Shown piece by piece: positions 5,772-35,719 of a stretch of DNA of 64,000 nt. Positions within the stretch are counted from its first letter, which is position 1, and each line of letters opens with the position of its first letter. The notes below the pieces were generated by a model. That model worked only from the letters and a program-made list of their open reading frames with translations, made no database searches and had not been told where the DNA came from. The stretch lies in IMG/VR virus record IMGVR_UViG_3300028048_001497, positions 64,001 through 128,000 of that record, one strand, 5' to 3'. Source of the DNA: a virus. Its lineage: Duplodnaviria; Caudoviricetes. The translations under genes and the position numbers were made by a program.

Positions 5772-5829
5772 TAGTATGAAAATTTTTAAATTTTTAATAT
5801 AAAAATAATTATTAATGGAGTTGATATAG

Positions 5830-7242: not shown

Positions 7243-7260
7243 TGGAAAGGAATTTTAACT

Positions 7261-8165: not shown

Positions 8166-8967
8166 TATAGTTTATATGACAAATCAATCATATTTATTCC
8201 AAACATATGTTTCTATGAAATCACTAAAATATAATAAACATCGTGACATTTGTTACGATGTTTATTTATTATGTATTGAATTTAGAGATATAGGAAAAAT
8301 AAAAGAATTAGATAGTGATGATTTTCATATAAAACCAATTTTTATAGATAAAAACATATTTAAGACTGAAAATAATGCCGGTGTTGTTTATTATAAACTG
8401 TTGTTACATGAACTGTTGGATTGCGATTTTGTTTTTCATATAGATTCTGATACAATCGTAATAAAAGATATATCAGATGTTTTCAAAATAAATATAAATG
8501 ATTATTTTTGTGGTGCAGTTCGTGACAAGATAAATGGATTTTCTTATTTTAATGCAGGGAATGTATTATTCAATTTAAAGAAAATACGAGAAAAGATAAT
8601 AGATAAAGATAAGACAATGTATGTTTATTATGAAGAGTTGAATAATGAGTTGAAAGATAATAAAGGCTTTTTATGGGAACAAGATATTATGAATAAAGCG
8701 TTTAAAAATTATATTAAATATATTGATTATGGGTATAATTTTTTGGCTAATACATATAGCAAATATAAATTTAATGAGTTGGTTCGTTTATATGGAGAAC
8801 CAATTAAATCAGACAATATTAAAATAATTCATTTTGCTAGTAACCCTAAACCTTGGAAAAAAAGTTCATTGTTTGGTGAAATTTGGAAAATGTATGCAGA
8901 AAATAGAATAGATAAAGAATATGAAAATAAAATTTTAAGGATGGCTTGTCGTGAATACAAAAAATGA
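8128..8967 (+). CDS. glycosyltransferase family 8
   Basis: HIDSD (DxD), YFNAGNVLFNL, EQDIMN, IIHFASNPKPW. Confidence 0.92.
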   Translation: MMHIMNCQGNCFNIVYMTNQSYLFQTYVSMKSLKYNKHRDICYDVYLLCIEFRDIGKIKELDSDDFHIKPIFIDKNIFKTENNAGVVYYKLLLHELLDCDFVFHIDSDTIVIKDISDVFKININDYFCGAVRDKINGFSYFNAGNVLFNLKKIREKIIDKDKTMYVYYEELNNELKDNKGFLWEQDIMNKAFKNYIKYIDYGYNFLANTYSKYKFNELVRLYGEPIKSDNIKIIHFASNPKPWKKSSLFGEIWKMYAENRIDKEYENKILRMACREYKK

Positions 8968-10093: not shown

Positions 10094-11001
10094 AAATTAA
10101 TTTGATTTATTTATTTTACGAATTAAATGGAGCATATACATCATTTGAAGATACATTTTATAATTTAAGACGATTTACAAATCATGATATTCGATTTATT
10201 ATTTTATATGAAGATAAAAATTTATTAAGAAGATTTCATGAATATTTAGCTTTTGGTGATGGAATTTGTTATCTTCCATTAGCAGTTGGAAAATACATGG
10301 ATACATATGGAAATACAAATATTATTAAACATAAAAAAATGGTTTATGATATAAAAGGTGATATAAACATTATTAGTTCTGAAATTATTAAATTACAGAA
10401 ACAAAATCGTTTTAAACAATCTGCTAATCAAGAATTTCTTTTATATCCTGCATTTATTTACAAGCAACAAAATAAAAACCAACAAATTTTAAAAGATGAA
10501 ATGGATTATATAAAAGAACATCATGTATTAACAATTTGTAATAAATTTAATTCAAAGTTTGTTGATAATAGTTTTGTTTGGTATATGAAGTTTTCTCCTG
10601 AAAGAATTAATAAACTGAAAAATTTAGTTTCAAATAAAAAAGATGCTCTAGTTGCAGAGGAATATTATCACAGTAAAATAAAAGAAGAAAATATTAAGCC
10701 ATTTGATTATAAAGAATATTTATATTATCGTTATGATAAGAAAAATAATGATAATTTGTATACAGATGATGGTGCTCGGTATTATGAAAACATTGGTAAG
10801 TTACTATTTGAATTTATTTTATTAGGAAAAAATTCAATTTATTTACCAAAAAATAAAAAGTTTGATGATGGATTAACAGAATTTATGAATGATATGGGAT
10901 TAGATGACAATAAAGAGTATAAATTTTCTGATAAAGATAAACAATTTTTTGAGGATAAATTGTTTATGAAGTCGGATGATAAACTTTTAACTATTTTTTA
11001 A
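10090..11001 (+). CDS. hypothetical protein in glycosylation operon
   Basis: 303-aa ORF coupled by ATGA overlap. Confidence 0.75.
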   Translation: MKINLIYLFYELNGAYTSFEDTFYNLRRFTNHDIRFIILYEDKNLLRRFHEYLAFGDGICYLPLAVGKYMDTYGNTNIIKHKKMVYDIKGDINIISSEIIKLQKQNRFKQSANQEFLLYPAFIYKQQNKNQQILKDEMDYIKEHHVLTICNKFNSKFVDNSFVWYMKFSPERINKLKNLVSNKKDALVAEEYYHSKIKEENIKPFDYKEYLYYRYDKKNNDNLYTDDGARYYENIGKLLFEFILLGKNSIYLPKNKKFDDGLTEFMNDMGLDDNKEYKFSDKDKQFFEDKLFMKSDDKLLTIF

Positions 11002-11016
11002 GGAAGAAGTTTTTGT

Positions 11017-12606
11017 ATGAAAATATTAGGAATACAATGTTATCAAGATTATAATGTTACATATTATAATACAGATACAAAAGAAATGAAGTTTTTGGAA
11101 TTAGAAAAATTATTAAAAAAGAAACATTTTTCTTTCCATTCAGATAAAATTGATTATATGTCTGAAATAGATAATATTTATCGTGATAATCTTAGAAATA
11201 ATTTATATAAATGTCAAAAATTAATTCATAAAGAATTTAATGTTGATAAATTTGACGTGATTTGTTGGAATTATAAAACATTTAAAGACGGTTATTTAAA
11301 ACAGGAATCATATGATTTTGTAAAAATGTTAGAGCGTTGTGACATTTTAAAATTTCATCATCAAGAAAATCATGTGTTACCAGCAATAATTGAAAATCAT
11401 TTATCTGATGCGCTTTGTTTATCTATAGATGGTAAGGGTGATGGAAATCATGCTTTTTATCATTGGAAAGATAATAAATTGAATAAATTGTTTCAAGAAC
11501 AAAAATTCTCATATGGTATGTATTATGAAGTGTTGTCCTGCTATTTTTTAGATAAACGTCATAAATATGAACAAGGATTAGAAGGTAAATTTATGGCATA
11601 TGCAGGTTTATCTAATAATTTTGTTCAAATTAAAGATATAGATGTTTTTGAAAAAACAATTAAAGACGTGAATTGGAATATATGGGAAGATAAAGAAAAT
11701 ATAGAAACATATATTTATAATTTCTTAGATGAACAATCTAAAGAATTTGATAAGTATGATTTGGCATATACCATGCAAAAATTGTGGATAGATTGGGTAA
11801 TGAGAGAACTATCTTCTTATAGACATGAAAGTGATATATTAGTCCTTTCTGGTGGTTGTGCTATGAATTGTATGTTAAATTATGTGATTGAAAAAACAGG
11901 TTGGTTTAATCATATATACTATACCCCTGTTGTAGCAGACACAGGTCAATCATATGGTGCAGTTTTAAATTATTTGTTGCATTATAAACCAGATGAATTA
12001 AATTATATTAAGTCTAAAAACTATACTGTTACTCAATCAATGCAAGAAAAAGATTTGTATCAACAACATAGTTCTGAATTTAACGATATAGATATAAACG
12101 CTTTGGTTGAAAAATTGGCTAATGATAAAATTGTTGGTGTTTGTCGTGGGAATATTGAAATGGGTGCAAGAGCCTTGGGTAGACGTAGCATTTTATCTTC
12201 TCCATTTCACAAAGAAATGCATGATAAATTAAATACAATAAAGGGTAGAGAATGGTATCGTCCATATGGAATTATAATTCCTGAAGATAAAATAAGTGAA
12301 TATTTCGATATAGATACTGATGTCCCATACATGAATATTTTAGCAAAACCAAAAATAGATAATTTATTAGGTGCTATGCATAAAGATGGAACAATTCGTA
12401 TACAAACAGTTAGTGAAAAAGATGATAAATGGTTATATAATTTGTTATATGCGTTTGGTAATAAAACAGGAGTTGCAATTTTAATTAATACTTCATTTAA
12501 TGATAGTGGTTTGCCAATTTTTAATTATTTTAGTGATATGTATCGTATGTATCAAGAAAAATTGGATGGATTAATTATTGAAAATAAAGTTTCGTATAAA
12601 GAGTGA
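11017..12606 (+). CDS. NodU/CmcH-family O-carbamoyltransferase
   Basis: HHQENH, DGKGD, EGKFMAYAG, LSGGCAMN, GARALGRRSIL, KGREWYRP, HKDGTIRIQTV, LINTSFN. Confidence 0.93.
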   Translation: MKILGIQCYQDYNVTYYNTDTKEMKFLELEKLLKKKHFSFHSDKIDYMSEIDNIYRDNLRNNLYKCQKLIHKEFNVDKFDVICWNYKTFKDGYLKQESYDFVKMLERCDILKFHHQENHVLPAIIENHLSDALCLSIDGKGDGNHAFYHWKDNKLNKLFQEQKFSYGMYYEVLSCYFLDKRHKYEQGLEGKFMAYAGLSNNFVQIKDIDVFEKTIKDVNWNIWEDKENIETYIYNFLDEQSKEFDKYDLAYTMQKLWIDWVMRELSSYRHESDILVLSGGCAMNCMLNYVIEKTGWFNHIYYTPVVADTGQSYGAVLNYLLHYKPDELNYIKSKNYTVTQSMQEKDLYQQHSSEFNDIDINALVEKLANDKIVGVCRGNIEMGARALGRRSILSSPFHKEMHDKLNTIKGREWYRPYGIIIPEDKISEYFDIDTDVPYMNILAKPKIDNLLGAMHKDGTIRIQTVSEKDDKWLYNLLYAFGNKTGVAILINTSFNDSGLPIFNYFSDMYRMYQEKLDGLIIENKVSYKE

Positions 12607-13367
12607 TAGAATTGAAACATATTCCTTTGATAGAATATCATTTAGTAAATCATTGTAATTTAAATTGTAAGGGGTGTGCTCATTTTGCACCATTGGCAAA
12701 ACATTGGTTTGCAGATATATATGAATTTGAGAAAGATTTAAAACAACTATCTTCATTGGTTGAAATTGATAGACTAACTTTGTTTGGTGGAGAACCATTG
12801 TTAAATGATAATATAAATGATTTTTTAATTATAGCAAGAAAGGTTCTTCCAAATACAGATATTAGTGTTTTGACAAACGGTGTTGTTTTATTAAAAAAAA
12901 TAAGTTCTATGGCAAAAGTTCTAAAAGATAATAATATTTATATTGATATTACTTGTTATCCAATTAATGTTGACTATGAAATAGAATTAAAAATGTTAAA
13001 AGCATTAAAGATACCATATAGAATTTATAATGATTTAGAACGTGTAAAAACATTAAGGCATCATATTTTATCTCATATAAAAAAAGAAAATACATGGGAT
13101 TGTTTAATGATAAATTCAAATTCGGTTCAATTAAGAAATGGTAAATTGTATATATGTCCTTTGCAAGCGTATATTGATATTTTTAATGATTATTTTCACG
13201 AAAATTTTAAAGTAGATAAAAATAATATTTTGGATATTTATAATTGTACGGACGATGATATAGTAAATATGTATCATAGAAAAAATAGTTTTTGTGAATA
13301 TTGTAGAGAACCAATAGAAGGGAATAAATATTCTACATCTAAAAGGGAGAAGTTAGAATGGATGTAA
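12603..13367 (+). CDS. radical SAM protein
   Basis: CNLNCKGCAHFAP, FGGEPLL, LTNG, C-terminal CEYC. Confidence 0.9.
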   Translation: MIELKHIPLIEYHLVNHCNLNCKGCAHFAPLAKHWFADIYEFEKDLKQLSSLVEIDRLTLFGGEPLLNDNINDFLIIARKVLPNTDISVLTNGVVLLKKISSMAKVLKDNNIYIDITCYPINVDYEIELKMLKALKIPYRIYNDLERVKTLRHHILSHIKKENTWDCLMINSNSVQLRNGKLYICPLQAYIDIFNDYFHENFKVDKNNILDIYNCTDDDIVNMYHRKNSFCEYCREPIEGNKYSTSKREKLEWM

Positions 13368-14170
13368 AATATTGTTTAAAAACACAAATTGTGGATGAAT
13401 GTAATTTAAATTGTAAAGGGTGTGACCATTTTGCTCCATTAGCAAAACCTTGGCATCAACCATTAGTAGATTTTGTTAATATGATGAAAACGGTTCGTAA
13501 TACAATTGGAAATAATATCAAGGAAATTGAATTATACGGTGGAGAACCTTTATTACATGAACAATTATATGAAATGATTTTAGTTTTGAAAGTTCTTTTC
13601 AACAATGAAATTATAATTTCAATTGAAACAAATGGCATTTTATTAAATAATTTTTTACAAAGTCATAAAAATTTAATTAATGATAATAAAATAGAAATTA
13701 AAATTACGGAATATAAAAGCACAAAAGGAATTGTAAATAGATTAAAGAATAATTATTTACATAATAATATATATCAAGCAAAAATGTTAAATAAAGAACT
13801 TGAATTAACAAATCATTTTTCATATAAAGAAAACTTGTTTAATGTTAACATTAACAAAAAACAAAATGAACAAATTATTGATGTATATAATAATTGTTAT
13901 GTAAAATGTGAGGAAAAAGATTCTTTGTGTTTAAGAGATTGGATTTTATCTCCATGTCCAATGACAATGTGCTTGAATATTTTTGATGATTTTTTTAATG
14001 AACAATATGATAATAAGAATAATCATGTTGTTGTTACTGATAAATTATCTGTTAAAGATTTAGATAAAATGGCACATTATCCATGTGATTTTTGTAAGCG
14101 ATGTGGAAATATTATTTATGGTATTCCATATGGCATTTCTAAAAAGGATAGAAAAGAATGGCAGATGTAA
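13358..14170 (+). CDS. radical SAM protein (paralog of upstream gene)
   Basis: CNLNCKGCDHFAP, YGGEPLL, ETNG, C-terminal CDFCKRC. Confidence 0.9.
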   Translation: MDVKYCLKTQIVDECNLNCKGCDHFAPLAKPWHQPLVDFVNMMKTVRNTIGNNIKEIELYGGEPLLHEQLYEMILVLKVLFNNEIIISIETNGILLNNFLQSHKNLINDNKIEIKITEYKSTKGIVNRLKNNYLHNNIYQAKMLNKELELTNHFSYKENLFNVNINKKQNEQIIDVYNNCYVKCEEKDSLCLRDWILSPCPMTMCLNIFDDFFNEQYDNKNNHVVVTDKLSVKDLDKMAHYPCDFCKRCGNIIYGIPYGISKKDRKEWQM

Positions 14171-15093
14171 AATTTTATATTATTATTCCAACATATAATC
14201 GTTTTGATAAAATAAAAAAAGCGATACAAAGTGTATTGCAACAGATATATGATAAGTATCATATAATTATAGTTGATGACCATTCAGATAAAAATAATCA
14301 TATACAATTAGAAAAATATACTAATTGTAATGATAGAATATCATATTATTATTTGCCTGAAAATAGAGGTCATTGTTATGCTAGAAATTTTGCGTTAAAT
14401 CATATTGAAGAAATTGATAGTTGGGTAAAATATTTAGATGATGATGATTTAATATTACCAAATTGCTTAAAAGATATTGCAGATTATATATCAAAAAACA
14501 AACAAATAAATGTTTTAACAACAAATTTTGATATATTAAACGAACATGATGAAGTGATTAAGCATATTGAACCTAATTATAATATTGATAGTGTTTTTAA
14601 TGGAAATTTAGACACTTGTTGCATTTGTCATAAATATTCATTGTTTAAAGAAATTGGTGGATGGGATGAATTTTTATATCGTATGGCAGATGATGATTTT
14701 TTCTTTAAATATATTACTAATGGTAAATATGGGTTTTTAGATAAAACAACCTCCGTATTTTATCGGACAAGTGATAAAGGTAGAGTATCGAACCAGACAA
14801 CGAATTTAAAATATGTTAATTATATTGCAGACAAATATAATTATCATTATAATAAAAAATGTTTGATTATATGTGATAATAAATATATTGACAATGTGTT
14901 AAATACTGAATTTAAGATTGAATCATTTATGAAGTTTGATATAAATAAAAAGCCATCAAAAGATTATGATTATTTGATTTATATTAAAGATTTTAACGTT
15001 CTTCAAGATTTGTATGATGAACTATATCGTACTAAGAAAGATTTGGTTAAAATAAAAAATTCTATATTGATAAAAAATAGATTAAAGAATTGA
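14158..15093 (+). CDS. glycosyltransferase family 2
   Basis: IIIPTYNR, IIVDDHS, NRGHCYARN, YLDDDD. Confidence 0.92.
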   Translation: MADVKFYIIIPTYNRFDKIKKAIQSVLQQIYDKYHIIIVDDHSDKNNHIQLEKYTNCNDRISYYYLPENRGHCYARNFALNHIEEIDSWVKYLDDDDLILPNCLKDIADYISKNKQINVLTTNFDILNEHDEVIKHIEPNYNIDSVFNGNLDTCCICHKYSLFKEIGGWDEFLYRMADDDFFFKYITNGKYGFLDKTTSVFYRTSDKGRVSNQTTNLKYVNYIADKYNYHYNKKCLIICDNKYIDNVLNTEFKIESFMKFDINKKPSKDYDYLIYIKDFNVLQDLYDELYRTKKDLVKIKNSILIKNRLKN

Positions 15094-27535: not shown

Positions 27536-27566
27536 AAAGAGGAACAATGAAATGTTCCTCTTTTTT
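27536..27566 (+). terminator. intrinsic terminator
   Basis: aaagaggaaca / tgttcctcttt plus T run. Confidence 0.8.
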
Positions 27567-27928
27567 ATATAATATTTTGGTGATAAATATGTCTAAATTC
27601 GTTGATTTGACAAATCAAGTTTTCGGTGATTTGACGGTTATAAAACGTGCAGAAGATAGATATGGTAGAACAAGATGGTTATGCAGATGTTCCTGTGGAA
27701 AATATGTAGAACGATATGCGTATGATTTAAAACATGGAAATACAACATCTTGTGGTTGTAAAAAATATGAGAAAATATCAAAAAAAGAAAAATTACACGG
27801 TATGTCTAAGACAAAATTTTATAAAAAATTTTATGGAATGAAAAGTCGTTGCTATAATCCAAATAATAAACGATATAAAAATTATGGTGGTAGAGGAATT
27901 AAAGTAGAATGGAATAGTTTTGAAGAAT

Positions 27929-28105
27929 TTGACATCTTTCCCCACCTAAAGAGGTGGGGGATTCCTACTTCTTTGACCGTAGCGTATGCGGTGAAACCGC
28001 ATGAGGTATGGCGTAGCCATGCCTTTGGTACGTCTTACACAATCTCCATAGGCTTAGTTTTATACTGATTCCGCAAGCCCTGCGGTACAGTTTTTATATG
28101 GTTTA
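27929..28105 (-). ncRNA. omegaRNA (reRNA) scaffold of the TnpB element
   Basis: structured region between the tnpB stop and the right end; conserved in the MITE at 49.1-49.3 kb; 5' boundary approximate. Confidence 0.65.
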
Positions 28106-29215
28106 GGCTACTGAAAGTAGCCTTTTACCTTCTTTTAAGATATTTATGCTTGCGTTTATATCTCGGTCATGCGTAGCATGACATTTCGGACATTCCCATT
28201 CTCTGATTGACAAATCTTTTACTTTTAGATTTTTATATCCACAAGAACTACAAATCTGAGAACTAGGAAAGAAAGTATCTACCTTTACTACTTGGCAATT
28301 GCATTGCCATTTTGCTTTGTATTCAAGCATAGTAACAAATTTATTCCATGAAGAATCCTGAATACTTTTAGCTAATCTATGATTTTTTACCATATTTTTG
28401 ATTTTTAAATTTTCAATAGCTATGACTTGGTTTTCATCTACTATCTTTCTTGAAAATTTGTGAAAGAAATCATTTTTAAAATTGGTAATTTTTTCATATT
28501 GAATAGCTAATTTAATTCTTCTTTTTTCATGGTTTTGAGATTTAGGCATTGTTCTTGAAAATTGTTTTTGCAATCTTTTTAATTTCTTTTCAAGTTTTTT
28601 AATATGCTCTGTGTCCATGTGGTACTTCGTACCGTTGGACAGGATAGCAAAATCTTTAATACCCAAATCAATGCCAACTTCGTTGGTTTGTGAGACACCG
28701 TAGGTGTCTTTTTCTTCCACAAGAAGTGAAACAAAATACTTATTAGATGGTGTCTTTGACACGGTAGCATTTTTGATTATTCCATTGAAGAATCTACTCT
28801 GCCTTACTTTTACAAGAGTTTTGAGTTTAGGCAAGCGTAGCTTGCTATTCTCAAATCTCACATTATTATTTGTTGTAGAAGTAGTATAAGAATTCATTCC
28901 ATGTTTTTTATGAAATTTTGGAAATCCTGCTCTTTTTTCAAAGAAATTTTTATAAGCGGTTTGCAACCGCTTTGCAGACCAAAACAACGAATTTGAATCA
29001 CTCAATTTCAACCATTTATATTCAGGATATTTTTTTAAATCTGTAATGTGTTTTGTCATTTGAGAAAAATTCATAGATTTCTTTTCATTTTGCCAAAGGT
29101 CTTTTCTAAGACCTAACAAATGATTGTAAACAAATCTACAATTCCCAATGTTTTGGTCAAAAAATTGTTTTTGTTCTTCATTAGGATATAATCTAAATTT
29201 GTATGCTTTTAGCAT
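28103..29215 (-). CDS. tnpB: RNA-guided endonuclease TnpB
   Basis: [12 protein letters not shown]; Ruv[20 protein letters not shown]; Zn finger CSSCG..CPKC; catalytic D-E-D intact. Confidence 0.96.
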
Positions 29216-29238
29216 TTTGTTTCACCTCCTTTGATTTA

Positions 29239-29267
29239 ATTGTATCACTATTTGCAAAAATAGTCAA
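29239..29267 (-). promoter_or_regulatory. sigma70-type promoter of tnpB
   Basis: TTGACT-17-TACAAT with TG extension on the minus strand, followed by AAAGGAGGTG RBS. Confidence 0.7.
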
Positions 29268-29871
29268 GAGTTGATATTGGTCATCCCCCACTTTCGTTAC
29301 TCGGTAGCCTAACGGCTACCTCGTAGCTTAGAAGTGGGGGACTTCACTGACGTTTAAAAAAAAGAAAAAAATAAATAAAATAACAAAAGAACTATTATCA
29401 TATGATGATTATAAAAATGAAATTATATCAATTTCGACAAGAAAAAATTTTAACAATTTAATTGGACAAAAATTTGGAGCACTCACAGTTGTTGCAAGAT
29501 TAACAAATAAAAAAGGGAAAATAAGATGGTTATGTAGGTGCGATTGTGGAAACTATTGTGATAAATTAGGAAATAGTTTAACAACAAATCATACCACTTC
29601 TTGTGGATGTAAGATTAATCGAATCGGAATTACATCAATAAATAAAGAAGAATATACCGTGTGGAATAATATAAAACAATGGTGTAATAATAAAAATAAT
29701 CCTAAATACAAATACTATGGTGAAAAAGGAATTTCTATATGTAAACAATGGGAAAGTAGTTTTGAAACATTTTTAAATGATGTTGGGAACAAACCAAAAA
29801 ATTCGATTTTTTGTAGGAAAAATGAATTTGGCAATTTCACAAAAGAAAATTGTTATTGGAAGGTAATATAA

Positions 29872-30900
29872 ATGCCGAATATTATTGATTTAACGAATCA
29901 AAGATTTGGAAATTTAACAGTTATTTGTAGAGCGAAAGGAAAAAATAATCGTGCTTATTGGTTATGTAAATGTGATTGTGGTAATGAAAAAATTATTAAT
30001 GGTGCTAATTTAATTCATCAAAAAACAAAAACTTGTGGAAATTGTAAAATAAAAGATATTCCTTCAAAGGGAACATATGGTATTCATTCTGTTTTTCATA
30101 CATTGGAAGAATGGAGTGACATCACAGGATTATCTGTTGATGATGTAAAAGAATGTTTTGAAAATCATATTTCGTTTCTTGATTTTATGAAAAACAATCA
30201 AACAATAGATGAAACAGGTAAAAAATATGGTCATTTGACAGTATTAAAAAGAGTAAAAAATGATAAATATAATCGTGCTTGTTGGTTGTGTAAATGCGAT
30301 TGTGGAAATGAAATAGTTGTAGAAGGTGCGCAATTAAGAAATGGTCATTATATATCATGTGGATGTGAAAAAAATAAGAAACTAAAAGAATTATCACGGA
30401 CGCATGGATTATCAAATACATCAACATATCAATCTTGGTTAGGAATGAAAAGTAGATGTTACAATAAAAAAAATCCTAGATATAAACATTATGGTGGCAG
30501 AGGAATTGTTGTTTGTGAACAATGGAAAAATAATTTTCAACAATTTGTAAATGATATGGGAGAAAAGCCAAATTCTAGTTATTCAATTGATAGAATAGAT
30601 GTGGATGGCAACTATGAACCGTATAATTGCAGATGGGCAACTAGCATACAACAAGCTAATAACAAACAAAATTCAAATCATAATTATAAAAATAAATTAA
30701 AAATAATTTATTTAAACATTAAATCAAACAAAAATATGCTAGGATGGGCAACATTTATTGAATTTTATCAAGATATGCTAAAATCTTATGTTGAACATTG
30801 TGAAAAATATGGAGAAAAGAACACATTTATCAATAGAATAAATAAATCAAATGGTTTTTCAAAAGAAAATTGTTATTGGGGGTGCGCTTCGGAATTATGA
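29872..30900 (+). CDS. HNH-type homing endonuclease with repeated Zn-binding modules
   Basis: two WLCKCDCGNE modules, YGGRGI, SIDRIDVDGNYEPYNCRWAT. Confidence 0.88.
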   Translation: MPNIIDLTNQRFGNLTVICRAKGKNNRAYWLCKCDCGNEKIINGANLIHQKTKTCGNCKIKDIPSKGTYGIHSVFHTLEEWSDITGLSVDDVKECFENHISFLDFMKNNQTIDETGKKYGHLTVLKRVKNDKYNRACWLCKCDCGNEIVVEGAQLRNGHYISCGCEKNKKLKELSRTHGLSNTSTYQSWLGMKSRCYNKKNPRYKHYGGRGIVVCEQWKNNFQQFVNDMGEKPNSSYSIDRIDVDGNYEPYNCRWATSIQQANNKQNSNHNYKNKLKIIYLNIKSNKNMLGWATFIEFYQDMLKSYVEHCEKYGEKNTFINRINKSNGFSKENCYWGCASEL

Positions 30901-30929
30901 AAAAAGATGTTTTGTAAGACCTAGAAAAT

Positions 30930-31295
30930 TTGGTTCAAAGTATATATAATAAATTTGATATACAAATACCTAGTATTGAATATTATAAATTACTAAGAGA
31001 TTTAAACATTACAATTAAATACAAAAGCAATATAGATATTTTGTATGATAATTGTATTCAAAAACATGACGAAAGTTATATATTTTTAATTTGTAATAGA
31101 ATTGGGAAACATCAGGAAAATTTTGATATAGTTAGAATGATAGGAAATATTATTTTAGATGTTCCATATAATACTAGAGATTTTAATTTAGAAAATTTAA
31201 TTTCTCATTTTGCCATTATGTATTTAGTACCAAAAAATACCATTCAAAAAAATACAAATATTAAATTAGTAAGCGAGAAGTTTGTGCTAGAATAA
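30930..31295 (+). CDS. degenerate ImmA/IrrE-like protein lacking HExxH
   Basis: QENFDIVRMIGNIIL where RxNFTIAHELGH is typical; LENLISHFAIMYLVP matches E.EAN.FA..LL.P. Confidence 0.45.
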   Translation: MVQSIYNKFDIQIPSIEYYKLLRDLNITIKYKSNIDILYDNCIQKHDESYIFLICNRIGKHQENFDIVRMIGNIILDVPYNTRDFNLENLISHFAIMYLVPKNTIQKNTNIKLVSEKFVLE

Positions 31296-31342
31296 AAATT
31301 GTTGAATCTGAACTATAAATTTGTTTGAAAGGAAATCATATT

Positions 31343-32059
31343 ATGGAAAAAATCGTTGATTTTGTTCAACCAAAAGGGAAATGGGAATTTAACGAAGAAG
31401 TGGCAAAATGTTTTGATAATATGCTAGAGCGTTCTATTCCTGATTATAATAATATGAGAAAGTTAGAAAAACTCATTGTTAAAAATTCAATACCAGATAA
31501 AAACACAATGTTAGATATTGGTTGTTCAAATGGTATTAATATTGATGATTTTTGTAATGATATGAAATGTTATGGTATTGATGTAAGTGAACCAATGTTG
31601 CAACAAGCTAGAAACAGATTTATTAAAAATAAAAATGTAACTATTGAAAAATATAATATTATTGATGGTTTAAATACTTTGTGTGGTAAATTTGGTTTGG
31701 ACGGATTTGATGTAATTACTTCTGTTTTAACCGTTCAATTTACTCCCATTGAATATAGACAATCTATTTTATCCGATATTTATAATCATTTAAATAAAAA
31801 TGGTGTTTTTATCTTTGTTGAAAAGATTTTGGGTTCTGATAATGTAATTAATAATATGTTAGTAAAATCATATTATGATATAAAATCAGATAATGGATAT
31901 AGTTATGATGCTATTCATAGAAAGAAAAAATCTTTAGAAGGGGTATTAGTTCCTGTTACATCGAATTGGAATAAAGATTTATTGAAACAGGCAGGATTTA
32001 CTAAAATGGAAACATTTTGGAAATGCTTAAATTTTGAAGGTATTGTAGCTTTGAAATGA
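31343..32059 (+). CDS. cmoA: CmoA-like SAM-dependent enzyme (putative carboxy-SAM synthase)
   Basis: WEFNEEVAKCFDNMLERSIPDY, LDIGCSNG, FIFVEK, KKKSLEGVL, WKCLNF all match CmoA signatures. Confidence 0.8.
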   Translation: MEKIVDFVQPKGKWEFNEEVAKCFDNMLERSIPDYNNMRKLEKLIVKNSIPDKNTMLDIGCSNGINIDDFCNDMKCYGIDVSEPMLQQARNRFIKNKNVTIEKYNIIDGLNTLCGKFGLDGFDVITSVLTVQFTPIEYRQSILSDIYNHLNKNGVFIFVEKILGSDNVINNMLVKSYYDIKSDNGYSYDAIHRKKKSLEGVLVPVTSNWNKDLLKQAGFTKMETFWKCLNFEGIVALK

Positions 32060-32068
32060 GGTAAAATT

Positions 32069-33973
32069 GTGAAGATAAAATATGCAGATATGTTTTGCGG
32101 TATCGGCGGTTTTCGATTAGCATTAAATACTGTTCCTTCTGAATGTGTATTTAGTTCTGATTACGATAAAAATGCACAGATTTGTTACCAAGCATTACAC
32201 GGAGAATTACCATATACAAAAGATATTCGTACTTATGATTACCACGATATTCCTGATATAGATTTGTTATGTGGCGGTTTTCCGTGCTTTACAGGAGATA
32301 CTTTGGTAACTACAGACGACGGGTTGGTTGCAATAAAAGACATTAAAAATGGTGATAAGGTTCTTACACATGACGGAACATATAAAACAGTTTCCGCAAT
32401 ATTAGAGCAAGGCGAAAAGGAAATTTGGGACGTTGATGCTATGGCTACTGCGGGGTTAAGGACTACAGAAAATCATCTTTTTTATGTTAGAAAAAAATAT
32501 AGAGAAGGACATAAAAGTGTTCGTAAGTTTACGAATCCGACGTGGGTTGAATGTAAAAATTTAACAAAAGAACATTATATGGGGTTTCCCGTTAATGATA
32601 AAAATAATGAACCATGTATTTCGGGATATACTAATATTGATTTGTCCGAAGAAACTATTTGGTATTTGGCAGGTAGATATTTGGGAGACGGTTGGATTAG
32701 AGCACGCAAAGACCGTAGCACAGGTGTTGGTGGAGTAATTGTTTGCTGTGGTAAACACAAAGCTGACAAGTTTGAAACTATCATTGGGGAAAAATATCAT
32801 TATACTAAAGTTGAAGAAAAAACTGTTAATAAATATATTTTCTCGAACGTTGAAATGGCTAATTTCTTTGCAAAAATGGGTAAAGGTGCAGAAAATAAAT
32901 TTATACCACAAGAGTTTATTGATTTGAACCCTAAATATTTATCTAAAATTATTGAGGGGTATCTTGATAGTGACGGTTATTTTACAAAACAAAAAAAATA
33001 TCGTATTACTACAATTAGTCAAAAATTAGCGTATACTTTTTCGCAGGTTGTTGCGAAAGTTTATCGTCGTCCAACGTCTATTTATTTTAGAAACAATGCA
33101 AAAACCCGTGTTATTGAGGGTAGAACCGTTAATTGCCGTCCTTTTTATATTGTAGAATTTAAAAAAGAAACAAGTTCCCAAGACAAGGCTTTTTATGAAA
33201 ATGGATATATTTGGTTTCCAATAAAGAAAGTTGAAAAAGCCAATGTTCGAGAATTTGTTTATGATATTACTGTAGAAGAAAATCATTCTTTTGTTGCTAA
33301 TAATTGTATTGCTCATAATTGTGCCAAATTTTCTATGGCAGGAGATAGAACAGGTTTTGCTTCAAAAGACCCTAGAGCACAGATGTTTTGGGAGCTTGCT
33401 AAAATATTAGAAATTAAAAAACCAACGATGTTTTGGTTTGAAAATGTGAAAGGACTGTTGAGTCACGATGAAGGAAATTCCTTTAGAACAATATTGCGGA
33501 AGTTGGATGAATTGGGGTATGATGTCGAATGGTTTTGTCCAAACGCAAAAGATACAGGCTACCCCATCATCAGAGAAAGGGTATTCATTGTCGGACATTT
33601 TAGAGAAAAACCCACAGAAAAAGTTTTTCCTATCGAAACCAAGAGTTTCACATATGATAGAAACATTAAAGTCTACCAATATAGGAGAAAAAGATTTAGA
33701 ATTACTGAAGGATATGTACCAACTTTAACGGCTTCTATGGGGACAGGTGGCAATAATGTTCCTATGGTAATAACTGATAACCAGTTGAGAAAAATAACGC
33801 CTAGGGAGTGTTTTAGGCTACAAGGAATGAATGATTCTGATATAGATAAATTACTTAATACAGGATTATCAAATTCCGCTTTATATGAACGCGCAGGTAG
33901 AACAATTTTTCAACCAATAGCTAAAAAAATAGCACAAAATATTTATAATGTATTGAATATAAAACATAAATAA
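32069..33973 (+). CDS. C5-cytosine DNA methyltransferase with intein (candidate carboxymethyltransferase)
   Basis: motif I DMFCGIGG, IV GGFP|C, VI ENVKGL, VIII RERVFIVG, IX TPRECFRLQG, X AGR instead of AGN. Confidence 0.92.
   Translation: MKIKYADMFCGIGGFRLALNTVPSECVFSSDYDKNAQICYQALHGELPYTKDIRTYDYHDIPDIDLLCGGFPCFTGDTLVTTDDGLVAIKDIKNGDKVLTHDGTYKTVSAILEQGEKEIWDVDAMATAGLRTTENHLFYVRKKYREGHKSVRKFTNPTWVECKNLTKEHYMGFPVNDKNNEPCISGYTNIDLSEETIWYLAGRYLGDGWIRARKDRSTGVGGVIVCCGKHKADKFETIIGEKYHYTKVEEKTVNKYIFSNVEMANFFAKMGKGAENKFIPQEFIDLNPKYLSKIIEGYLDSDGYFTKQKKYRITTISQKLAYTFSQVVAKVYRRPTSIYFRNNAKTRVIEGRTVNCRPFYIVEFKKETSSQDKAFYENGYIWFPIKKVEKANVREFVYDITVEENHSFVANNCIAHNCAKFSMAGDRTGFASKDPRAQMFWELAKILEIKKPTMFWFENVKGLLSHDEGNSFRTILRKLDELGYDVEWFCPNAKDTGYPIIRERVFIVGHFREKPTEKVFPIETKSFTYDRNIKVYQYRRKRFRITEGYVPTLTASMGTGGNNVPMVITDNQLRKITPRECFRLQGMNDSDIDKLLNTGLSNSALYERAGRTIFQPIAKKIAQNIYNVLNIKHK
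32285..33319 (+). mobile_element. 345-aa intein with LAGLIDADG homing endonuclease
   Basis: starts CFTGDT; block B TTENH; LAGRYLGDG and IEGYLDSDG; ends VYDITVEENHSFVANNCIAHN; +1 residue Cys. Confidence 0.93.
33468..33728 (+). CDS. nested alternative-frame ORF, putative methyltransferase beta subunit
   Basis: WMNWGMMSNG...SLSDILEKNPQKKFFLS, resembling the LxDILE...KYxLS element of C5-MTases and the overlapping beta peptide of M.EcoHK31I. Confidence 0.55.
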   Translation: MKEIPLEQYCGSWMNWGMMSNGFVQTQKIQATPSSEKGYSLSDILEKNPQKKFFLSKPRVSHMIETLKSTNIGEKDLELLKDMYQL

Positions 33974-34037
33974 GAATATATTTTGTTATTGTAAAAAGAA
34001 AATTTTGTTAACTTTTTAGAAGGAATGATATATATAT

Positions 34038-34289
34038 ATGGCAACAGTTACAGTTACAAATGAAATGGACTTTGATGATTTAATGAATTTTTGTTGGAGA
34101 GGTGCAGTTGATACGCTTAAAGTTATCGAAGATAATGGTAAGCAGGAAGAATTTATGTCCATGCTTTCAGATTTGTTTAATGAGGGTGCTACTCTTACAG
34201 AAATTAATGAGTATCTTTGGCTCGATGATGATTCCATTTTTGCAGACCTAGGCATTTCAGATGATGAAGATGAGGGCGCAGAAGAATAA
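34038..34289 (+). CDS. small acidic phage protein
   Basis: AAGGA RBS; CWRGAVDTL...TLTEINEYLW. Confidence 0.8.
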   Translation: MATVTVTNEMDFDDLMNFCWRGAVDTLKVIEDNGKQEEFMSMLSDLFNEGATLTEINEYLWLDDDSIFADLGISDDEDEGAEE

Positions 34290-34298
34290 ATAAAATGA

Positions 34299-34326
34299 AG
34301 GAGTGGATAAAACCACTCCTATTTTT
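34299..34326 (+). terminator. intrinsic terminator
   Basis: aggagtgg / ccactcct plus attttt. Confidence 0.75.
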
Positions 34327-34393
34327 ATATGGAGCGCCGTAAAACCCCGCCCTTTAGGGCTGGTGATATAAGGTGCGAGAACTGAATTAAGTA

Positions 34394-34422
34394 TTGACAA
34401 GTTTCAACATTTGTAGTATAAT
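34394..34422 (+). promoter_or_regulatory. consensus sigma70 promoter of tnpB
   Basis: TTGACA-17-TATAAT. Confidence 0.8.
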
Positions 34423-34453
34423 ATAAACAAAACAACAAAAAGGAAGTGAGAAA

Positions 34454-35575
34454 ATGGAAAAATATATTAAGGGGTTTAAGTTTAGAATCTATCCTAACAA
34501 GACACAACAACAACTCATTAATAGTATTTTAGGCTGTTGCAGGTTTGTATATAATCATTTTCTCGACATCCGTAAAAATGAATGGAAAGCAAATCATAAC
34601 TCACTGACCTATGCTAAGACAAGTAAACTTCTCACAGACTTAAAAAAGCGAGAGGACACATCATGGCTAAAAGAAGCAGATAGTACTGCATTACAGCAGT
34701 CTTTGCGTGACCTTGACCGTGCCTATGAAAACTTCTTCAAAAAGAGAGCAGGCTATCCGCGTTTTAAGTCAAAGCATAGTAGCAGTCAGTCCTATCGTAC
34801 AATCAATCAAAAAGATGGTATTCGCATCGTAGATAAAAAGATAAAACTTCCTAAGATTGGTTTTGTGAAAATCAAGCAAAGCCGTACTTTTGAAGGTCGT
34901 ATCTTAAACGCTACGATAAGCCATATAGCTTCAGGAAAATACTTTATTTCTCTTTGTGTAGAGATGGATAAAGAAAAACTAATTTCAACTAACGATGGTA
35001 AACAGATTGGTATTGATGTTGGTTTGAAAGAATTCTATACTGATAGTAACGAAAACATCATTGCTAATCCTAGAGTTCTCAAAAAACTATCAAAAAAGTT
35101 AGCTAGAGAACAAAGGAGACTTTCTCATAAAATTCCTAAATCTAGGAATAGAGAAAAAGCTCGTATTCGTGTAGCTAAAGTTTACGAACGTATTACAAAC
35201 ATTCGCAAAGACTTTTTACACAAGTTGTCTACACGACTTGCTCGTGAAAACCAAACGATAGCCGTGGAGCACTTGAATATCAAAGGGATGTTAAAGAACC
35301 ATAGACTAGCAAAGTCTATTTCAGATGTAAGTTGGTCAGAGTTCTTCCGTCAGCTTGAGTACAAAACAGAATTACATGGTGGAGAACTACTCAAAATAGA
35401 TATGTTCTATCCATCAAGTCAAATTTGTTCTAATTGTGGTTATCAAAATGCAGAAATTAAAAATCTTAGCATCAGGGAGTGGGTTTGTCCTAAATGTGGA
35501 GCACACCATGATAGGGATATTAACGCAGCAAAGAATGTTTTGCGTAAAGCACTAGAAGAAAAACAAACAGCTTAA
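34454..35575 (+). CDS. tnpB: RNA-guided endonuclease TnpB
   Basis: KFRIYP, GIDVG, IAVEHL, CSNCG..CPKC, HDRDINAA. Confidence 0.96.
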   Translation: MEKYIKGFKFRIYPNKTQQQLINSILGCCRFVYNHFLDIRKNEWKANHNSLTYAKTSKLLTDLKKREDTSWLKEADSTALQQSLRDLDRAYENFFKKRAGYPRFKSKHSSSQSYRTINQKDGIRIVDKKIKLPKIGFVKIKQSRTFEGRILNATISHIASGKYFISLCVEMDKEKLISTNDGKQIGIDVGLKEFYTDSNENIIANPRVLKKLSKKLAREQRRLSHKIPKSRNREKARIRVAKVYERITNIRKDFLHKLSTRLARENQTIAVEHLNIKGMLKNHRLAKSISDVSWSEFFRQLEYKTELHGGELLKIDMFYPSSQICSNCGYQNAEIKNLSIREWVCPKCGAHHDRDINAAKNVLRKALEEKQTA

Positions 35576-35579
35576 TGAT

Positions 35580-35705
35580 ATATAAATACCGTGGGGCACA
35601 CGGGAATCAACGCTTGGGGAGAGTGTGTAAGACACCAATTCTTTGGAGGCGGTGCAACGCTCAATGAACCAAGAATCCCCTACCTTTAGGCATGGGGAGT
35701 GTCAA
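35580..35705 (+). ncRNA. omegaRNA (reRNA) scaffold of the second TnpB element
   Basis: accgtggggcacacggga...gtaagac...gaaccaagaatcccc typical of TnpB right ends; 5' boundary approximate. Confidence 0.65.
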
Positions 35706-35719
35706 ATGGGGGTGAGTGT

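What the first reader, a model, noticed from the sequence alone, without database searches (positions are those of the whole stretch)
31343..33973. Probable DNA carboxymethyl-cytosine system: CmoA-like Cx-SAM synthase plus C5-MTase with motif X Asn-to-Arg
Seen: a CmoA-like gene ends 9 bp before a C5-cytosine MTase. Motif X, normally (Q/x)xGNSV, reads YERAGRTI (Arg codon 33899-33901, precursor R611). The spliced motif IV reads PCAKFS rather than PCQxFS. The CmoA-like protein has Lys (KKKSLEGV) where E. coli CmoA has the Cx-SAM-binding Arg (KRSMLENV). Established: CmoA converts SAM plus prephenate to carboxy-SAM, and replacing the motif X Asn with a basic residue (engineered M.MpeI N374K) makes a C5-MTase transfer carboxymethyl groups. 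From memory, a natural cyanophage enzyme of this kind has been reported, so the chemistry has precedent. Inference: this phage makes its own Cx-SAM and writes 5-carboxymethylcytosine into DNA as anti-restriction armour. No CmoB or tRNA target is nearby. The combination with an intein and a nested beta-like ORF is one I do not recognise.
Basis: partly seen in the sequence, partly recalled or inferred. Interest (0 to 1): 0.92.

Follow-up and report, generated by a model that had tools for sequence, protein, structure and literature searches.

The report
Phage carboxymethylcytosine genes, intein, nested ORF
A giant phage carries the two-gene system, first proven in December 2025, that most likely puts carboxymethyl groups on its DNA cytosines; this copy is unusual because the transferase gene holds a recently arrived intein at its catalytic cysteine and a conserved second gene hidden in another reading frame.

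Summary
A CmoA homologue (31343-32059) ends 9 bp before a C5-cytosine transferase gene (32069-33973). That gene is split by a 345-aa LAGLIDADG intein at the catalytic Cys. Arg611 aligns with M.HhaI Asn304 and with SpCmoX Arg350.

This copy is a variant in these respects:
- The transferase is of GFPC type and would fail that paper's SPPC filter. It is only about 26% identical to SpCmoX.
- Motif X Arg covaries with loss of the motif IV Gln (71/71 against 50/50).
- CmoA has Lys at the Arg199 position, as do 38 of 123 relatives.
- No CmoY ligase exists here or in a 98%-complete relative.
- The intein is 97% identical to one in a host gene only 74% identical, and the closest relative has an empty site, so homing was recent.

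The least expected result concerns the 86-aa +1-frame ORF (33468-33728). It stays open in 8 of 8 clade members, main-frame synonymous sites are constrained only there, and its product is predicted to bind the transferase (0.91 against a best control of 0.00). That recalls M.EcoHK31I alpha/beta. Its translation is untested.

The parts
31343..32059 (+). cmoA homologue, a predicted carboxy-SAM synthase. It is 238 aa from the ATG; an upstream TTG at 31325 gives the 244-aa form that gene callers use. Lys195 (AAA, 31925-31927) sits at the E. coli Arg199 position.
   Evidence: TIGR00740 CmoA E 1.2e-43, 149.5 bits, full model length. E. coli CmoA 4GEK E 3e-26 and H. influenzae YecO E 3e-28. The active SpCmoA scores lower, 115.6 bits. 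The Arg199 column holds R 83, K 38, E 1, Q 1.
32060..32068 (+). 9-nt intergenic spacer. Together with the cmoA stop it forms GAGG, 7 nt before the MTase GTG start, so translational coupling is likely.
   Evidence: Sequence read.
32069..33973 (+). Precursor gene of a CmoX-type C5-cytosine transferase (634 aa; 289 aa after splicing).
   Evidence: PF00145 E 1e-58 in 3 stretches, plus Hint/intein/LAGLIDADG_3 domains. It is the only PF00145 gene on the contig.
32069..32284 (+). N-extein (72 aa): motif I FCGIGGF (32093-32113) and the first half of motif IV, GGFP (32273-32284).
32285..33319 (+). Class-1 intein of 345 aa. It has Cys1, block B T..H (32462-32476), two LAGLIDADG motifs (32666-32695 and 32948-32980) and a terminal His-Asn. 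It is inserted immediately before the catalytic Cys.
   Evidence: Pfam Intein_splicing, Hint_2 and LAGLIDADG_3; NCBIfam intein N- and C-terminal models. It is a precise insertion relative to the empty allele in L012: the two extein DNA blocks abut at L012 coordinate 10950. It is 97.4% identical to the L013 intein, while the exteins are 74.4% identical.
33320..33973 (+). C-extein (217 aa). Its features are Cys418, which is both the intein +1 residue and the MTase catalytic Cys (CAKFS, no Gln); motif VI ENV (33437-33454); motif VIII RERVFIVG (33572-33595); a short TRD with PTLTAS; motif IX (33788-33826); and motif X YERAGRTI (33884-33907) with Arg611 at 33899-33901.
   Evidence: M.HhaI alignment, SpCmoX alignments, coordinates. 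Motif X Arg covaries with a non-Gln motif IV in 71/71 sequences, against Asn with Gln in 50/50.
33468..33728 (+). Nested ORF of 86 codons in the +1 frame of the C-extein (ATG 33468, TAA 33726-33728; the frame is open from 33462). AAAGGA lies about 12 nt upstream of the ATG. It overlaps motifs VII-VIII and the start of the TRD. It is a candidate small subunit.
   Evidence: The frame is open with the same bounds in 8/8 clade genes; synonymous-shuffle P is 0.0055 or less in 7 and 0.047 in 1. Synonymous constraint is 0.75 in the overlap against 0.55 and 0.49 in the flanks. An ATG and a purine-rich upstream element are present in all 8. Predicted complex with the transferase: 0.91 against a best control of 0.00. 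The C-terminal half matches the L.DILE..KYYLS element that longer MTases carry in cis. A nested CDS is annotated in Streptococcus phage P0094.

Best explanation
This is a phage CmoA-CmoX DNA cytosine carboxymethylation module.

Proposed mechanism:
1. CmoA converts SAM and host prephenate into carboxy-SAM (inferred from homology).
2. The downstream gene, probably translationally coupled, is made as a 634-aa precursor. Its intein must splice itself out to join GGFP to the catalytic Cys418, so the enzyme is inactive until it splices (inferred from intact splicing residues).
3. The 289-aa product flips out a target cytosine. Cys418 attacks C6. The carboxymethyl group of Cx-SAM, whose carboxylate is held by Arg611, is transferred to C5, giving 5-carboxymethylcytosine (inferred by analogy with SpCmoX).
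4. No CmoY-type amide ligase is found here or in a near-complete close relative, so the end product is probably plain 5cxmC and not the glycine amide.

The modification most likely shields phage DNA from host restriction. The 86-aa product of the nested +1-frame ORF probably binds the transferase around motifs VI-IX. It would supply in trans a TRD-proximal element that longer enzymes carry in cis. The target sequence is unknown.
For: Published precedent (PMC12783734):
- SpCmoA makes Cx-SAM.
- SpCmoX makes 5cxmdC only with Cx-SAM, in vitro and in E. coli in a cmoA-dependent way.
- Arg350 contacts the carboxymethyl group in 8YF3, and the R350N mutant is dead.

This locus:
- CmoA family match over the full length, scoring above the active SpCmoA.
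- Arg611 aligns to HhaI Asn304 and SpCmoX Arg350 within a shared ER.GR motif.
- Among 122 relatives, GR always goes with a non-Gln motif IV and GN with PCQ.
- 49 of 80 viral cmoA loci have a C5-MTase in the flanks, nearly all ER.GR.
- 5 of 5 sampled members of the window's own clade lie beside a CmoA-like gene, and 2 of them also have an Asn-synthase-type ligase.
- No CmoB is present on the contig or in the 98%-complete 281-kb relative, and the window has no tRNA gene.
- No PF00733 ligase is present on the contig or in that relative.

Intein:
- All splicing blocks are present.
- There is an empty site in L012.
- It is 97.4% identical to the L013 intein, against 74.4% for the exteins.

Nested ORF.
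Against: - Nothing here is biochemical. Product identity, target motif and splicing are all inferred.
- The transferase is only 22-27% identical to SpCmoX, has GFPC and not the SPPC used to define the published set, and is overall closer to ordinary GN methyltransferases (about 42%).
- CmoA has Lys where E. coli uses Arg199 as the only carboxylate contact.
- CmoA scores below the NCBIfam equivalog cut-off (149.5 against 193.3).
- The contig is a fragment (CheckV 35%), so a ligase could lie elsewhere.
- For the nested ORF: every conserved word is the +1 reading of a conserved main-frame word; AF2 alone gives pLDDT 65.6; there is no Pfam or Atlas match; many database 'homologues' are +1-frame calls on broken GN genes; and there is no evidence of expression.
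Confidence: 0.85

Rival explanations
1. The transferase is an ordinary SAM-dependent 5-methylcytosine methyltransferase, and the neighbouring CmoA-like enzyme serves another purpose. That purpose could be host tRNA cmo5U modification or a small-molecule pathway such as the TglE or MccS routes.
For: - Overall sequence is closer to GN-type 5mC methyltransferases of Streptococcus phages (about 42% over the C-extein) than to SpCmoX (22-27%).
- CmoA homologues also serve 3-thiaglutamate and microcin C pathways (PMC10491745).
Against: - Arg at the Asn304 position, with the same ER.GR context as the crystallographic Cx-SAM contact.
- GR versus GN covaries perfectly with motif IV.
- cmoA adjacency holds in 5 of 5 clade members and in most viral cmoA loci.
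- Wild-type SpCmoX does not accept SAM.
- No CmoB is present.
Confidence: 0.06
2. The module is inactive. The intein-interrupted gene is a decaying remnant that no longer yields a working transferase, or the Lys-for-Arg CmoA no longer makes Cx-SAM.
For: - The intein sits at the catalytic Cys, so any splicing defect kills the enzyme.
- Lys replaces the only carboxylate-binding Arg of E. coli CmoA.
- The locus is crowded with selfish elements: two TnpB genes and two HNH genes.
Against: - Both reading frames are intact.
- All intein splicing residues (Cys1, T..H, His-Asn, +1 Cys) and both LAGLIDADG motifs are present.
- The same intein is 97% identical in a diverged host gene, the pattern of recent homing and not decay.
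- Lys is a recurrent state, found in 38 of 123 relatives, and the active SpCmoA has Glu at that column.
Confidence: 0.05
3. The nested +1 ORF is not a gene. The open frame and the synonymous constraint would reflect a nucleotide-level element (RNA structure, a regulatory or recombination signal) or codon choices tied to the highly conserved motifs VI-VIII. The predicted complex would then be a model artefact.
For: - WMNWGMMSNG, SLSDILE and KKYFLS are the +1 readings of LDELGYDVEW, FIVGHLR and EKVFPI, so much of the conservation is inherited.
- There is no Pfam or Atlas match.
- AF2 alone gives pLDDT 65.6.
- Database relatives are largely +1-frame calls on frameshifted or nonsense GN genes.
- The complex used my own alignments, so its calibration holds only roughly.
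Against: - Synonymous shuffles that keep the main-frame protein almost never leave the frame open: P is 0.0055 or less in 7 of 8 genes, and 0 of 5000 in phage P0094.
- The bounding stops are conserved.
- The synonymous constraint is specific to the overlap at equal amino-acid conservation.
- A start codon and a purine-rich upstream element are present in all copies.
- SPPC-type CmoX genes, which have the same motifs, mostly lack the open frame.
- The part downstream of the forced words still matches the cis element of longer MTases.
Confidence: 0.35

Closest known systems
CmoA-CmoX(-CmoY) system of Synechococcus phage S-B43 (Yang et al., Nat Commun 2025, PMC12783734; SpCmoX structure PDB 8YF3)
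   Same: - A phage-encoded CmoA homologue sits next to a C5-cytosine transferase.
- The transferase has Arg at the M.HhaI Asn304 position within an ER.GR motif X.
- Motif IV lacks the usual Gln (PCSAFS in SpCmoX, PCAKFS here).
- There is no CmoB.
- The same chemistry is expected: Cx-SAM, then 5cxmC.
   Different: - The transferase is only 22-27% identical to SpCmoX.
- Its motif IV is GFPC, not SPPC, so it fails the paper's sequence filter.
- It is 289 aa against 372 aa, with a much shorter TRD.
- It carries an intein.
- It has a conserved nested +1 ORF, which SPPC-type genes lack.
- No CmoY ligase is present, so 5cxmC and not 5gcxmC is expected.
- CmoA has Lys, not Glu (SpCmoA) or Arg (E. coli), at the Arg199 column.
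- The target motif is unknown, whereas SpCmoX targets GC.
Erwinia phage vB_EamM_Y3 (KY984068): CmoA Y3_017, Asn synthase Y3_018 and the intein-bearing C5-MTase Y3_050
   Same: - It is a jumbo phage.
- Its CmoA is the closest cultured-phage homologue (about 42%).
- Its transferase has ER.GR and an intein at exactly the same site, before the catalytic Cys (SPP|C...HN|CKGFS).
   Different: - The Y3 transferase is of SPPC type (27% identical) and lies 17 kb from cmoA.
- Its intein is only 21% identical to this one.
- Y3 has a CmoY-type ligase next to cmoA.
M.EcoHK31I, a heterodimeric C5-methyltransferase (described in PMC2836561)
   Same: [quoted passage not shown]
   Different: - The EcoHK31I beta chain carries motif IX. 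Here motif IX is in the main frame, and the nested product instead resembles the L.DILE..KYYLS element that follows motif VIII.
- A requirement for the nested product is untested here.
- The nested ORF here is shared by a whole family of short GFPC-type phage MTases, both GN and GR.
Engineered M.MpeI N374K carboxymethyltransferase (cited in PMC12783734 as the only earlier source of 5cxmC)
   Same: A basic residue at the motif X Asn position redirects a C5-MTase to Cx-SAM.
   Different: - That enzyme is an engineered single substitution with Lys.
- This one is natural, has Arg, and has coupled changes: ER before the Gly, and loss of the motif IV Gln.
E. coli CmoA / H. influenzae YecO (PDB 4GEK, 4IWN, 1IM8)
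   Same: Full-length homology (E 3e-26 to 3e-28), the SAM-binding DxGCSxG motif, and a conserved C-terminal K-[RK]-x-S-L-E-G-V block.
   Different: - It has Lys at Arg199.
- It is partnered with a DNA transferase and not with CmoB.
- It scores below the equivalog cut-off, as does the proven SpCmoA.

Membership tests
CmoX (phage DNA cytosine C5-carboxymethyltransferase, PMC12783734) | C5-MTase fold with the catalytic Pro-Cys of motif IV, the ENV of motif VI and the Arg of motif VIII | tested here: met
   PF00145 E 1e-58. After intein removal the protein has GGFP-C, ENV and RERVFIVG.
CmoX (phage DNA cytosine C5-carboxymethyltransferase, PMC12783734) | Arg at the position of SpCmoX Arg350 / M.HhaI Asn304 (the carboxymethyl contact) | tested here: met
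   Arg611 aligns to HhaI Asn304 and to SpCmoX Arg350, in a shared ER.GR context.
CmoX (phage DNA cytosine C5-carboxymethyltransferase, PMC12783734) | 'SPPC' motif IV, used by the authors as a search filter | tested here: not met
   Motif IV is GGFPC. This is a bioinformatic filter and not a mechanistic requirement. The catalytic PC is present, and the GFPC-type GR clades are cmoA-linked.
CmoX (phage DNA cytosine C5-carboxymethyltransferase, PMC12783734) | Genomic association with a phage cmoA | tested here: met
   There is a 9-nt gap to cmoA. All 5 sampled clade members lie beside a CmoA-like gene. L012 and L013 have the same order.
CmoX (phage DNA cytosine C5-carboxymethyltransferase, PMC12783734) | Transfers carboxymethyl from Cx-SAM to cytosine C5 and does not use SAM | not testable with these tools
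   This needs enzyme assays or LC-MS of DNA.
CmoX (phage DNA cytosine C5-carboxymethyltransferase, PMC12783734) | Common descent with SpCmoX, as opposed to an independent Asn-to-Arg switch | tested here: inconclusive
   - The free tree splits GR enzymes into at least 3 supported clades separated by GN enzymes.
- The AU test does not reject GR monophyly, and the constrained tree is better by 30.5 lnL (p-AU 0.85).
- The nested +1 ORF is shared with GFPC-type GN enzymes but is mostly absent from SPPC-type CmoX genes.
CmoA (carboxy-SAM synthase, TIGR00740) | Full-length match to the CmoA model above the curated cut-off | tested here: not met
   149.5 bits against a cut-off of 193.3, although the match covers model positions 12-239 of 239. 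The experimentally active SpCmoA scores 115.6, so the cut-off excludes proven phage members.
CmoA (carboxy-SAM synthase, TIGR00740) | Arg199, the only contact to the Cx-SAM carboxylate in E. coli CmoA | tested here: not met
   Lys195 is at that column. The charge is kept. The column holds K in 38 and R in 83 of 123 relatives, and SpCmoA has Glu.
CmoA (carboxy-SAM synthase, TIGR00740) | Makes Cx-SAM from SAM and prephenate | not testable with these tools
   This needs an enzyme assay.
Class-1 intein with LAGLIDADG homing endonuclease | Cys/Ser1, block B T..H, terminal His-Asn, a +1 Cys/Ser/Thr, two LAGLIDADG motifs, and insertion at a conserved site with empty alleles in relatives | tested here: met
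   for the motifs, for the empty site in L012, and for 97.4% intein identity against 74.4% extein identity.
Two-polypeptide C5-MTase with an alternative-frame subunit (M.EcoHK31I type) | A second ORF wholly inside the MTase gene in another frame, kept by selection | tested here: met
Two-polypeptide C5-MTase with an alternative-frame subunit (M.EcoHK31I type) | The small chain carries motif IX, which is missing from the large chain | tested here: not met
   Motif IX (RKITPRECFRLQG) is in the main frame. The nested product matches the post-motif-VIII element instead.
Two-polypeptide C5-MTase with an alternative-frame subunit (M.EcoHK31I type) | Both chains associate and both are needed for activity | tested here: inconclusive
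   The predicted complex scores 0.91 in three runs against a best control of 0.00, a mark reached by 58 of 80 solved complexes and 2 of 110 mismatched pairs. Partner pLDDT is 87 and the runs agree in at least 95% of contacts. This is a model, not a measurement, and a requirement for activity is untested.

The most novel reading that the evidence does not exclude
The transferase of this lineage works as a two-chain enzyme. An 86-aa polypeptide, read from the +1 frame of the transferase's own gene across motifs VII-VIII, docks onto the short main-frame protein. It supplies the TRD-proximal element that longer C5-MTases carry in cis. The same hidden gene (up to about 140-200 codons) runs through the whole family of short GFPC-type phage C5-methyltransferases, including cultured Streptococcus phages. 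That would make it a widespread overlapping gene that has gone largely unannotated, and a second natural case of the M.EcoHK31I architecture with a different division of labour.
Probability: 0.5. Interest if true: 0.75.

Novelty: new variant of a known kind. Interest (0 to 1): 0.55.

Why it matters
The core system is already published, so this locus mainly adds a member. It still matters in four ways.

1. **The published census is probably incomplete.** It required an SPPC motif, but there are whole cmoA-linked clades of GFPC-type Arg enzymes. These include this 280-300-aa clade and a clade of about 360 aa with a YERCGR motif X.

2. **There is a better sequence signature for telling carboxymethyl from methyl transferases.** The signature has three sites: ER.GR in motif X plus loss of the motif IV Gln. 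It also suggests residues to change when engineering such enzymes.

3. **A ligase-free module in a near-complete relative predicts phages whose DNA carries plain 5cxmC.** That base has so far been seen only as an intermediate or in engineered systems.

4. **The nested reading frame, if translated, changes how these genes should be handled.** It bears on the annotation, expression and engineering of a large family of small phage cytosine methyltransferases. It would also be one of the better-supported long same-strand overlapping genes in phages.

The intein at the catalytic cysteine makes enzyme activity strictly dependent on splicing. The presence/absence and identity pattern shows it is still spreading among these phages.

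Tried and rejected
1. **Independent (convergent) origin of the Arg-type enzymes.** The quick ML tree suggested at least 3 GR clades and 4 state changes. The AU test did not reject one clade, and the constrained tree scored higher. The claim is dropped and the question left open.

2. **Nested ORF as a relic of a frameshifted longer TRD.** None of the 120 closest relatives carries its words in the main frame. Its conserved words lie over motifs VII-VIII, so a simple frameshift cannot explain it.

3. **Database 'homologues' of the nested product as independent support.** The DNA of three of them (L097, L098, L099) shows ordinary GN MTase genes with a frameshift or nonsense codon, where the gene caller took the +1 frame. 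They were not used as evidence of a protein family.

4. **Searches that found nothing.**
   - Pfam, phmmer and ESM Atlas searches with the nested product.
   - CmoY (PF00733) and ParB_N (PF02195) on the contig, and PF00733 on the L012 and L013 contigs.
   - CmoB (PF08003) on the contig and on L012's contig.
   - Literature searches for inteins in cytosine methyltransferases and for overlapping genes in MTase genes. This is weak evidence of absence, because subscription journals are not held.

5. **Kim et al. 2013 on CmoA.** The paper could not be fetched. The role of Arg199 is cited from PMC4482062 instead.

6. **Not attempted.** The target sequence of the transferase, and fold comparison with 8YF3. 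All C5-MTases share the fold, and the tools do not report residue-level superposition.


Full report
**1. What is there**

The window is part of a 174,540-bp IMG/VR virus contig that CheckV rates 35% complete. It has about 29% G+C, and nearly all genes are on one strand. A tail sheath and virion proteins lie just upstream, and four proteins of 1,800-2,000 aa lie downstream. It is therefore a fragment of a large contractile-tailed phage.

The finding's two genes are real.
- **CmoA-like gene.** It runs 31343-32059 and encodes 238 aa from the ATG. A TTG at 31325 gives the 244-aa form that gene callers use.
- **Junction.** The TGA stop is followed by 9 nt that form GAGG with the stop, and then by the GTG start of the transferase at 32069.
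- **Transferase precursor.** It is 634 aa. The Pfam DNA_methylase match (E 1e-58) is broken into three stretches by Hint, intein and LAGLIDADG_3 domains. It is the only PF00145 gene on the contig.

**2. The transferase**

The intein is aa 73-417 (nt 32285-33319). It begins CFTGDTLV and ends IAHN, and the next residue, Cys418, is the catalytic cysteine of motif IV. Splicing would therefore join GGFP to CAKFS and give a 289-aa enzyme.

Motif X evidence:
- HMMER aligns the C-extein to M.HhaI with 'yerAGRti' under 'ykqFGNsv', so Arg611 (AGA, 33899-33901) stands at Asn304.
- Synechococcus phage S-B43 was fetched (MN018232). Its CmoX equals PDB 8YF3.
- MAFFT and BLASTP place Arg611 on Arg350 within a shared ER.GR motif: window YERAGRTI, SpCmoX TERVGRMV and Erwinia Y3 WERLGRIC.

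Among 122 relatives, all 71 GR proteins with a readable motif IV lack the Gln (A, F, C or S), and all 50 GN proteins have PCQ. The two residues before the Gly switch from KQ to ER. Among 150 more diverse representatives the Arg state again never occurs with Gln, although five GN proteins have PCP.

**3. CmoA**

The protein matches the NCBIfam CmoA model over its whole length (E 1.2e-43). It also matches E. coli CmoA and H. influenzae YecO. Its 149.5 bits are below the curated 193.3, but the biochemically proven SpCmoA scores only 115.6.

Lys195 aligns with E. coli Arg199. PMC4482062 describes that Arg as the only contact to the Cx-SAM carboxylate. Across the 120 closest homologues plus three references the column holds Arg 83, Lys 38, Glu 1 (SpCmoA) and Gln 1. 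The Lys is therefore a recurrent state that keeps the charge, not a lesion.

**4. Precedent and context**

Yang et al. (Nat Commun, Dec 2025, PMC12783734) showed the following:
- SpCmoA makes Cx-SAM.
- SpCmoX makes 5cxmC only from Cx-SAM.
- Arg350 contacts the carboxymethyl group.
- A neighbouring Asn-synthase-like ligase, CmoY, adds glycine.
- 5,615 candidates carry SPPC plus Arg350.

The window's enzyme has GFPC, so it would fail that filter. Its clade is nevertheless firmly linked to cmoA:
- In 80 viral loci found with a CmoA profile, 49 have a C5-MTase in the flanks, nearly all with ER.GR.
- All five sampled members of the window's own 280-300-aa clade sit beside a CmoA-like gene, and two of them have an Asn-synthase gene in between.

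No PF00733 ligase, ParB_N or CmoB is on this contig. The closest relative is L012, whose CmoA is 87% and whose transferase is 91% identical. It lies on a 281-kb contig rated 98% complete that also lacks PF00733 and CmoB. The lineage therefore appears to run a two-gene module, and plain 5cxmC is the likely end product.

**5. The intein is a recent arrival**

DNA alignment to L012 shows the two extein blocks (window 30877-32291 and 33326-34332) abutting at one L012 coordinate, so L012 has an empty site.

| Locus | Intein vs window | Extein vs window | CmoA vs window |
|---|---|---|---|
| L012 | none (empty site) | 90.6% | 87% |
| L013 | 97.4%, same site | 74.4% | 59% |
| Erwinia phage Y3 | 21%, same site | 27.4% | about 42% |

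All splicing residues and both LAGLIDADG motifs are intact. This is the pattern of active homing. It also means the enzyme is inactive until it splices.

The locus is a hotspot for selfish DNA. Relative to L012, the window also has a TnpB element inserted at 34333-35718 and another near 27931-29352, and HNH endonuclease genes lie at 27547-28068 and 29872-30900.

**6. One origin or several?**

A quick maximum-likelihood tree, built with the trait residues masked, placed GR enzymes in at least three supported clades separated by GN enzymes: SPPC-type including SpCmoX and Y3, the window's short clade, and a YERCGR clade.

An AU test did not reject a single GR clade, and the constrained tree had the higher likelihood (p-AU 0.85). 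I therefore do not claim convergence. The nested ORF described below is shared with GFPC-type GN enzymes and is mostly absent from SPPC-type CmoX genes, so the question stays open.

**7. The nested +1-frame ORF**

The finding's 'nested beta-like ORF' is at 33468-33728 (86 codons; the frame is open from 33462). I expected chance, because each of its conserved words is the +1 reading of a conserved main-frame word:

| +1 frame | Main frame |
|---|---|
| WMNWGMMSNG | LDELGYDVEW |
| SLSDILE | FIVGHLR |
| KKYFLS | EKVFPI |

The tests say otherwise.

- (a) **Open frame.** In all eight clade genes for which I had DNA, down to about 60% protein identity, the +1 frame is open for 88-91 codons with the same bounding stops. 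Elsewhere in the genes, +1 stops occur at 0.06-0.10 per codon. Synonymous shuffles that keep each protein give P of 0.0055 or less in seven genes and 0.047 in one.
- (b) **Synonymous constraint.** At equal main-frame conservation (0.60 in the overlap against 0.62 and 0.67 in the flanks), identical amino acids use identical codons in 75% of comparisons inside the overlap, against 55% and 49% in the flanks. Among invariant residues, 13 of 28 use a single codon in the overlap, against 7 of 42 and 1 of 27. Single pairs reach p = 1e-7.
- (c) **Start signals.** Every copy has an ATG within the first three codons and AAAGGA or AAGGGG 9-13 nt upstream.
- (d) **Family distribution.** GN relatives have the frame too, and longer. 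It is 141 codons in an intact metagenomic gene, 198 codons in a YERCGR-clade gene, and 139 codons in cultured Streptococcus phage P0094. In P0094 the depositors annotated it as CDS P0094_43, it matches the window-clade profile at 5e-23, and 0 of 5,000 shuffles keep it open.
- (f) **Resemblance to a cis element.** The product's C-terminal half matches the L.DILE..V.eKYYLS-plus-helix element that directly follows motif VIII in the main frame of intact longer MTases (E 1e-6 to 1e-3 in a set of 270 sequences). The window's short main frame lacks that element.
- (g) **Predicted binding.** A complex prediction of the intein-less homologue P0124 with the nested product scored 0.91 in three runs against a best control of 0.00. 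That mark was reached by 58 of 80 solved complexes and 2 of 110 mismatched pairs. Partner pLDDT was 87, and the runs agreed in at least 95% of contacts. The interface covers residues 119-239 of the large chain, spanning motifs VI-IX. Alone, the product folds poorly (pLDDT 65.6), as a subunit that folds on binding would.

Cautions:
- The complex is a model made with my own alignments.
- Many database 'homologues' are +1-frame calls on broken GN genes and do not count as support.
- Pfam and the Atlas find nothing.
- There are no expression data.

The known precedent is M.EcoHK31I, whose beta chain is encoded within another frame of the alpha gene and carries motif IX (PMC2836561). Here motif IX is in the main frame, so the division of labour would differ.

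**8. Verdict**

One earlier case was the Erwinia phage with an intein, another was a ligase-free separate lineage, and others had Arg-less transferases beside cmoA.
- The locus is best filed as a new variant of a known kind.
- Its added value lies in five things: the GFPC lineage outside the published filter, the three-site signature, the ligase-free state, the freshly homed intein at the catalytic Cys, and above all the evidence that a second gene is hidden in the transferase's +1 frame.

Noticed in passing
window 28103-29215 (-) and 34454-35575 (+): There are two TnpB (IS605 OrfB / Cas12f-like TNB) genes with no tnpA. Both are absent from the syntenic region of the close relative L012: window 34333-35718 and about 27931-29352 are insertions.
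   Followed up: partly
window 29353-29856: This 504-bp stretch is 99.6% identical to L012 6457-6960, while the surrounding syntenic DNA is only 77-89% identical. It lies between a TnpB gene and an HNH endonuclease gene, which suggests recently exchanged mobile DNA.
   Followed up: no
window 27547-28068 and 29872-30900: There are two HNH homing-endonuclease genes (phrog_374, E 2.5e-40 and 1.6e-91) just upstream of the module. Together with the intein and the TnpBs, they make this a hotspot of selfish elements.
   Followed up: partly
window 34038-34289: An 83-aa, very acidic ORF (Asp/Glu-rich C-terminus) lies directly after the transferase gene. The region is conserved in L012 and has no Pfam match. 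Its position and charge would fit a DNA-mimic anti-restriction protein, but this was not tested.
   Followed up: no
window 3644-15093: This is a cluster of four radical-SAM genes, GT8, GT4 and GT2 glycosyltransferases and a carbamoyltransferase. The GT2 has a weak, sub-threshold match to the TET-associated glycosyltransferase family (E 7.7e-5). It could tailor a glycan or a DNA base. No link to 5cxmC was shown.
   Followed up: no
L014 10828-11772, L019 7876-8925, L025 5840-6865, L038 6707-7654: In these viral loci, the MTase-like ORF next to cmoA lacks the ER.GR motif X (it reads NDEKYGDLL at the regex hit). This looks like the Arg-less transferase lineage beside cmoA that earlier notes of this scan describe.
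   Followed up: no
L099 2347-3603: A Streptococcus-like GN MTase gene has a single in-frame TGA exactly where the conserved Gly of ENVKGLL stands (ENVK*LLNHD). It is either a nonsense lesion or a contig that reads TGA as Gly.
   Followed up: no
L092 6022-7092 and L093 4907-5869: Two members of the window's transferase clade are followed by a second C5-MTase gene in the same cassette, so some of these phages carry two writers.
   Followed up: no
L097 2303-3557 and L098 2326-3601: These are GN MTase genes on conjugative-element-like contigs (ArdA, DUF4314 and Fic neighbours). Motifs I-VIII are in one frame and motifs IX-X in the +1 frame, and the frame switch is at a different point in the two genes. 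The P0267 cluster has 160 member sequences, so this may not be mere assembly error.
   Followed up: partly
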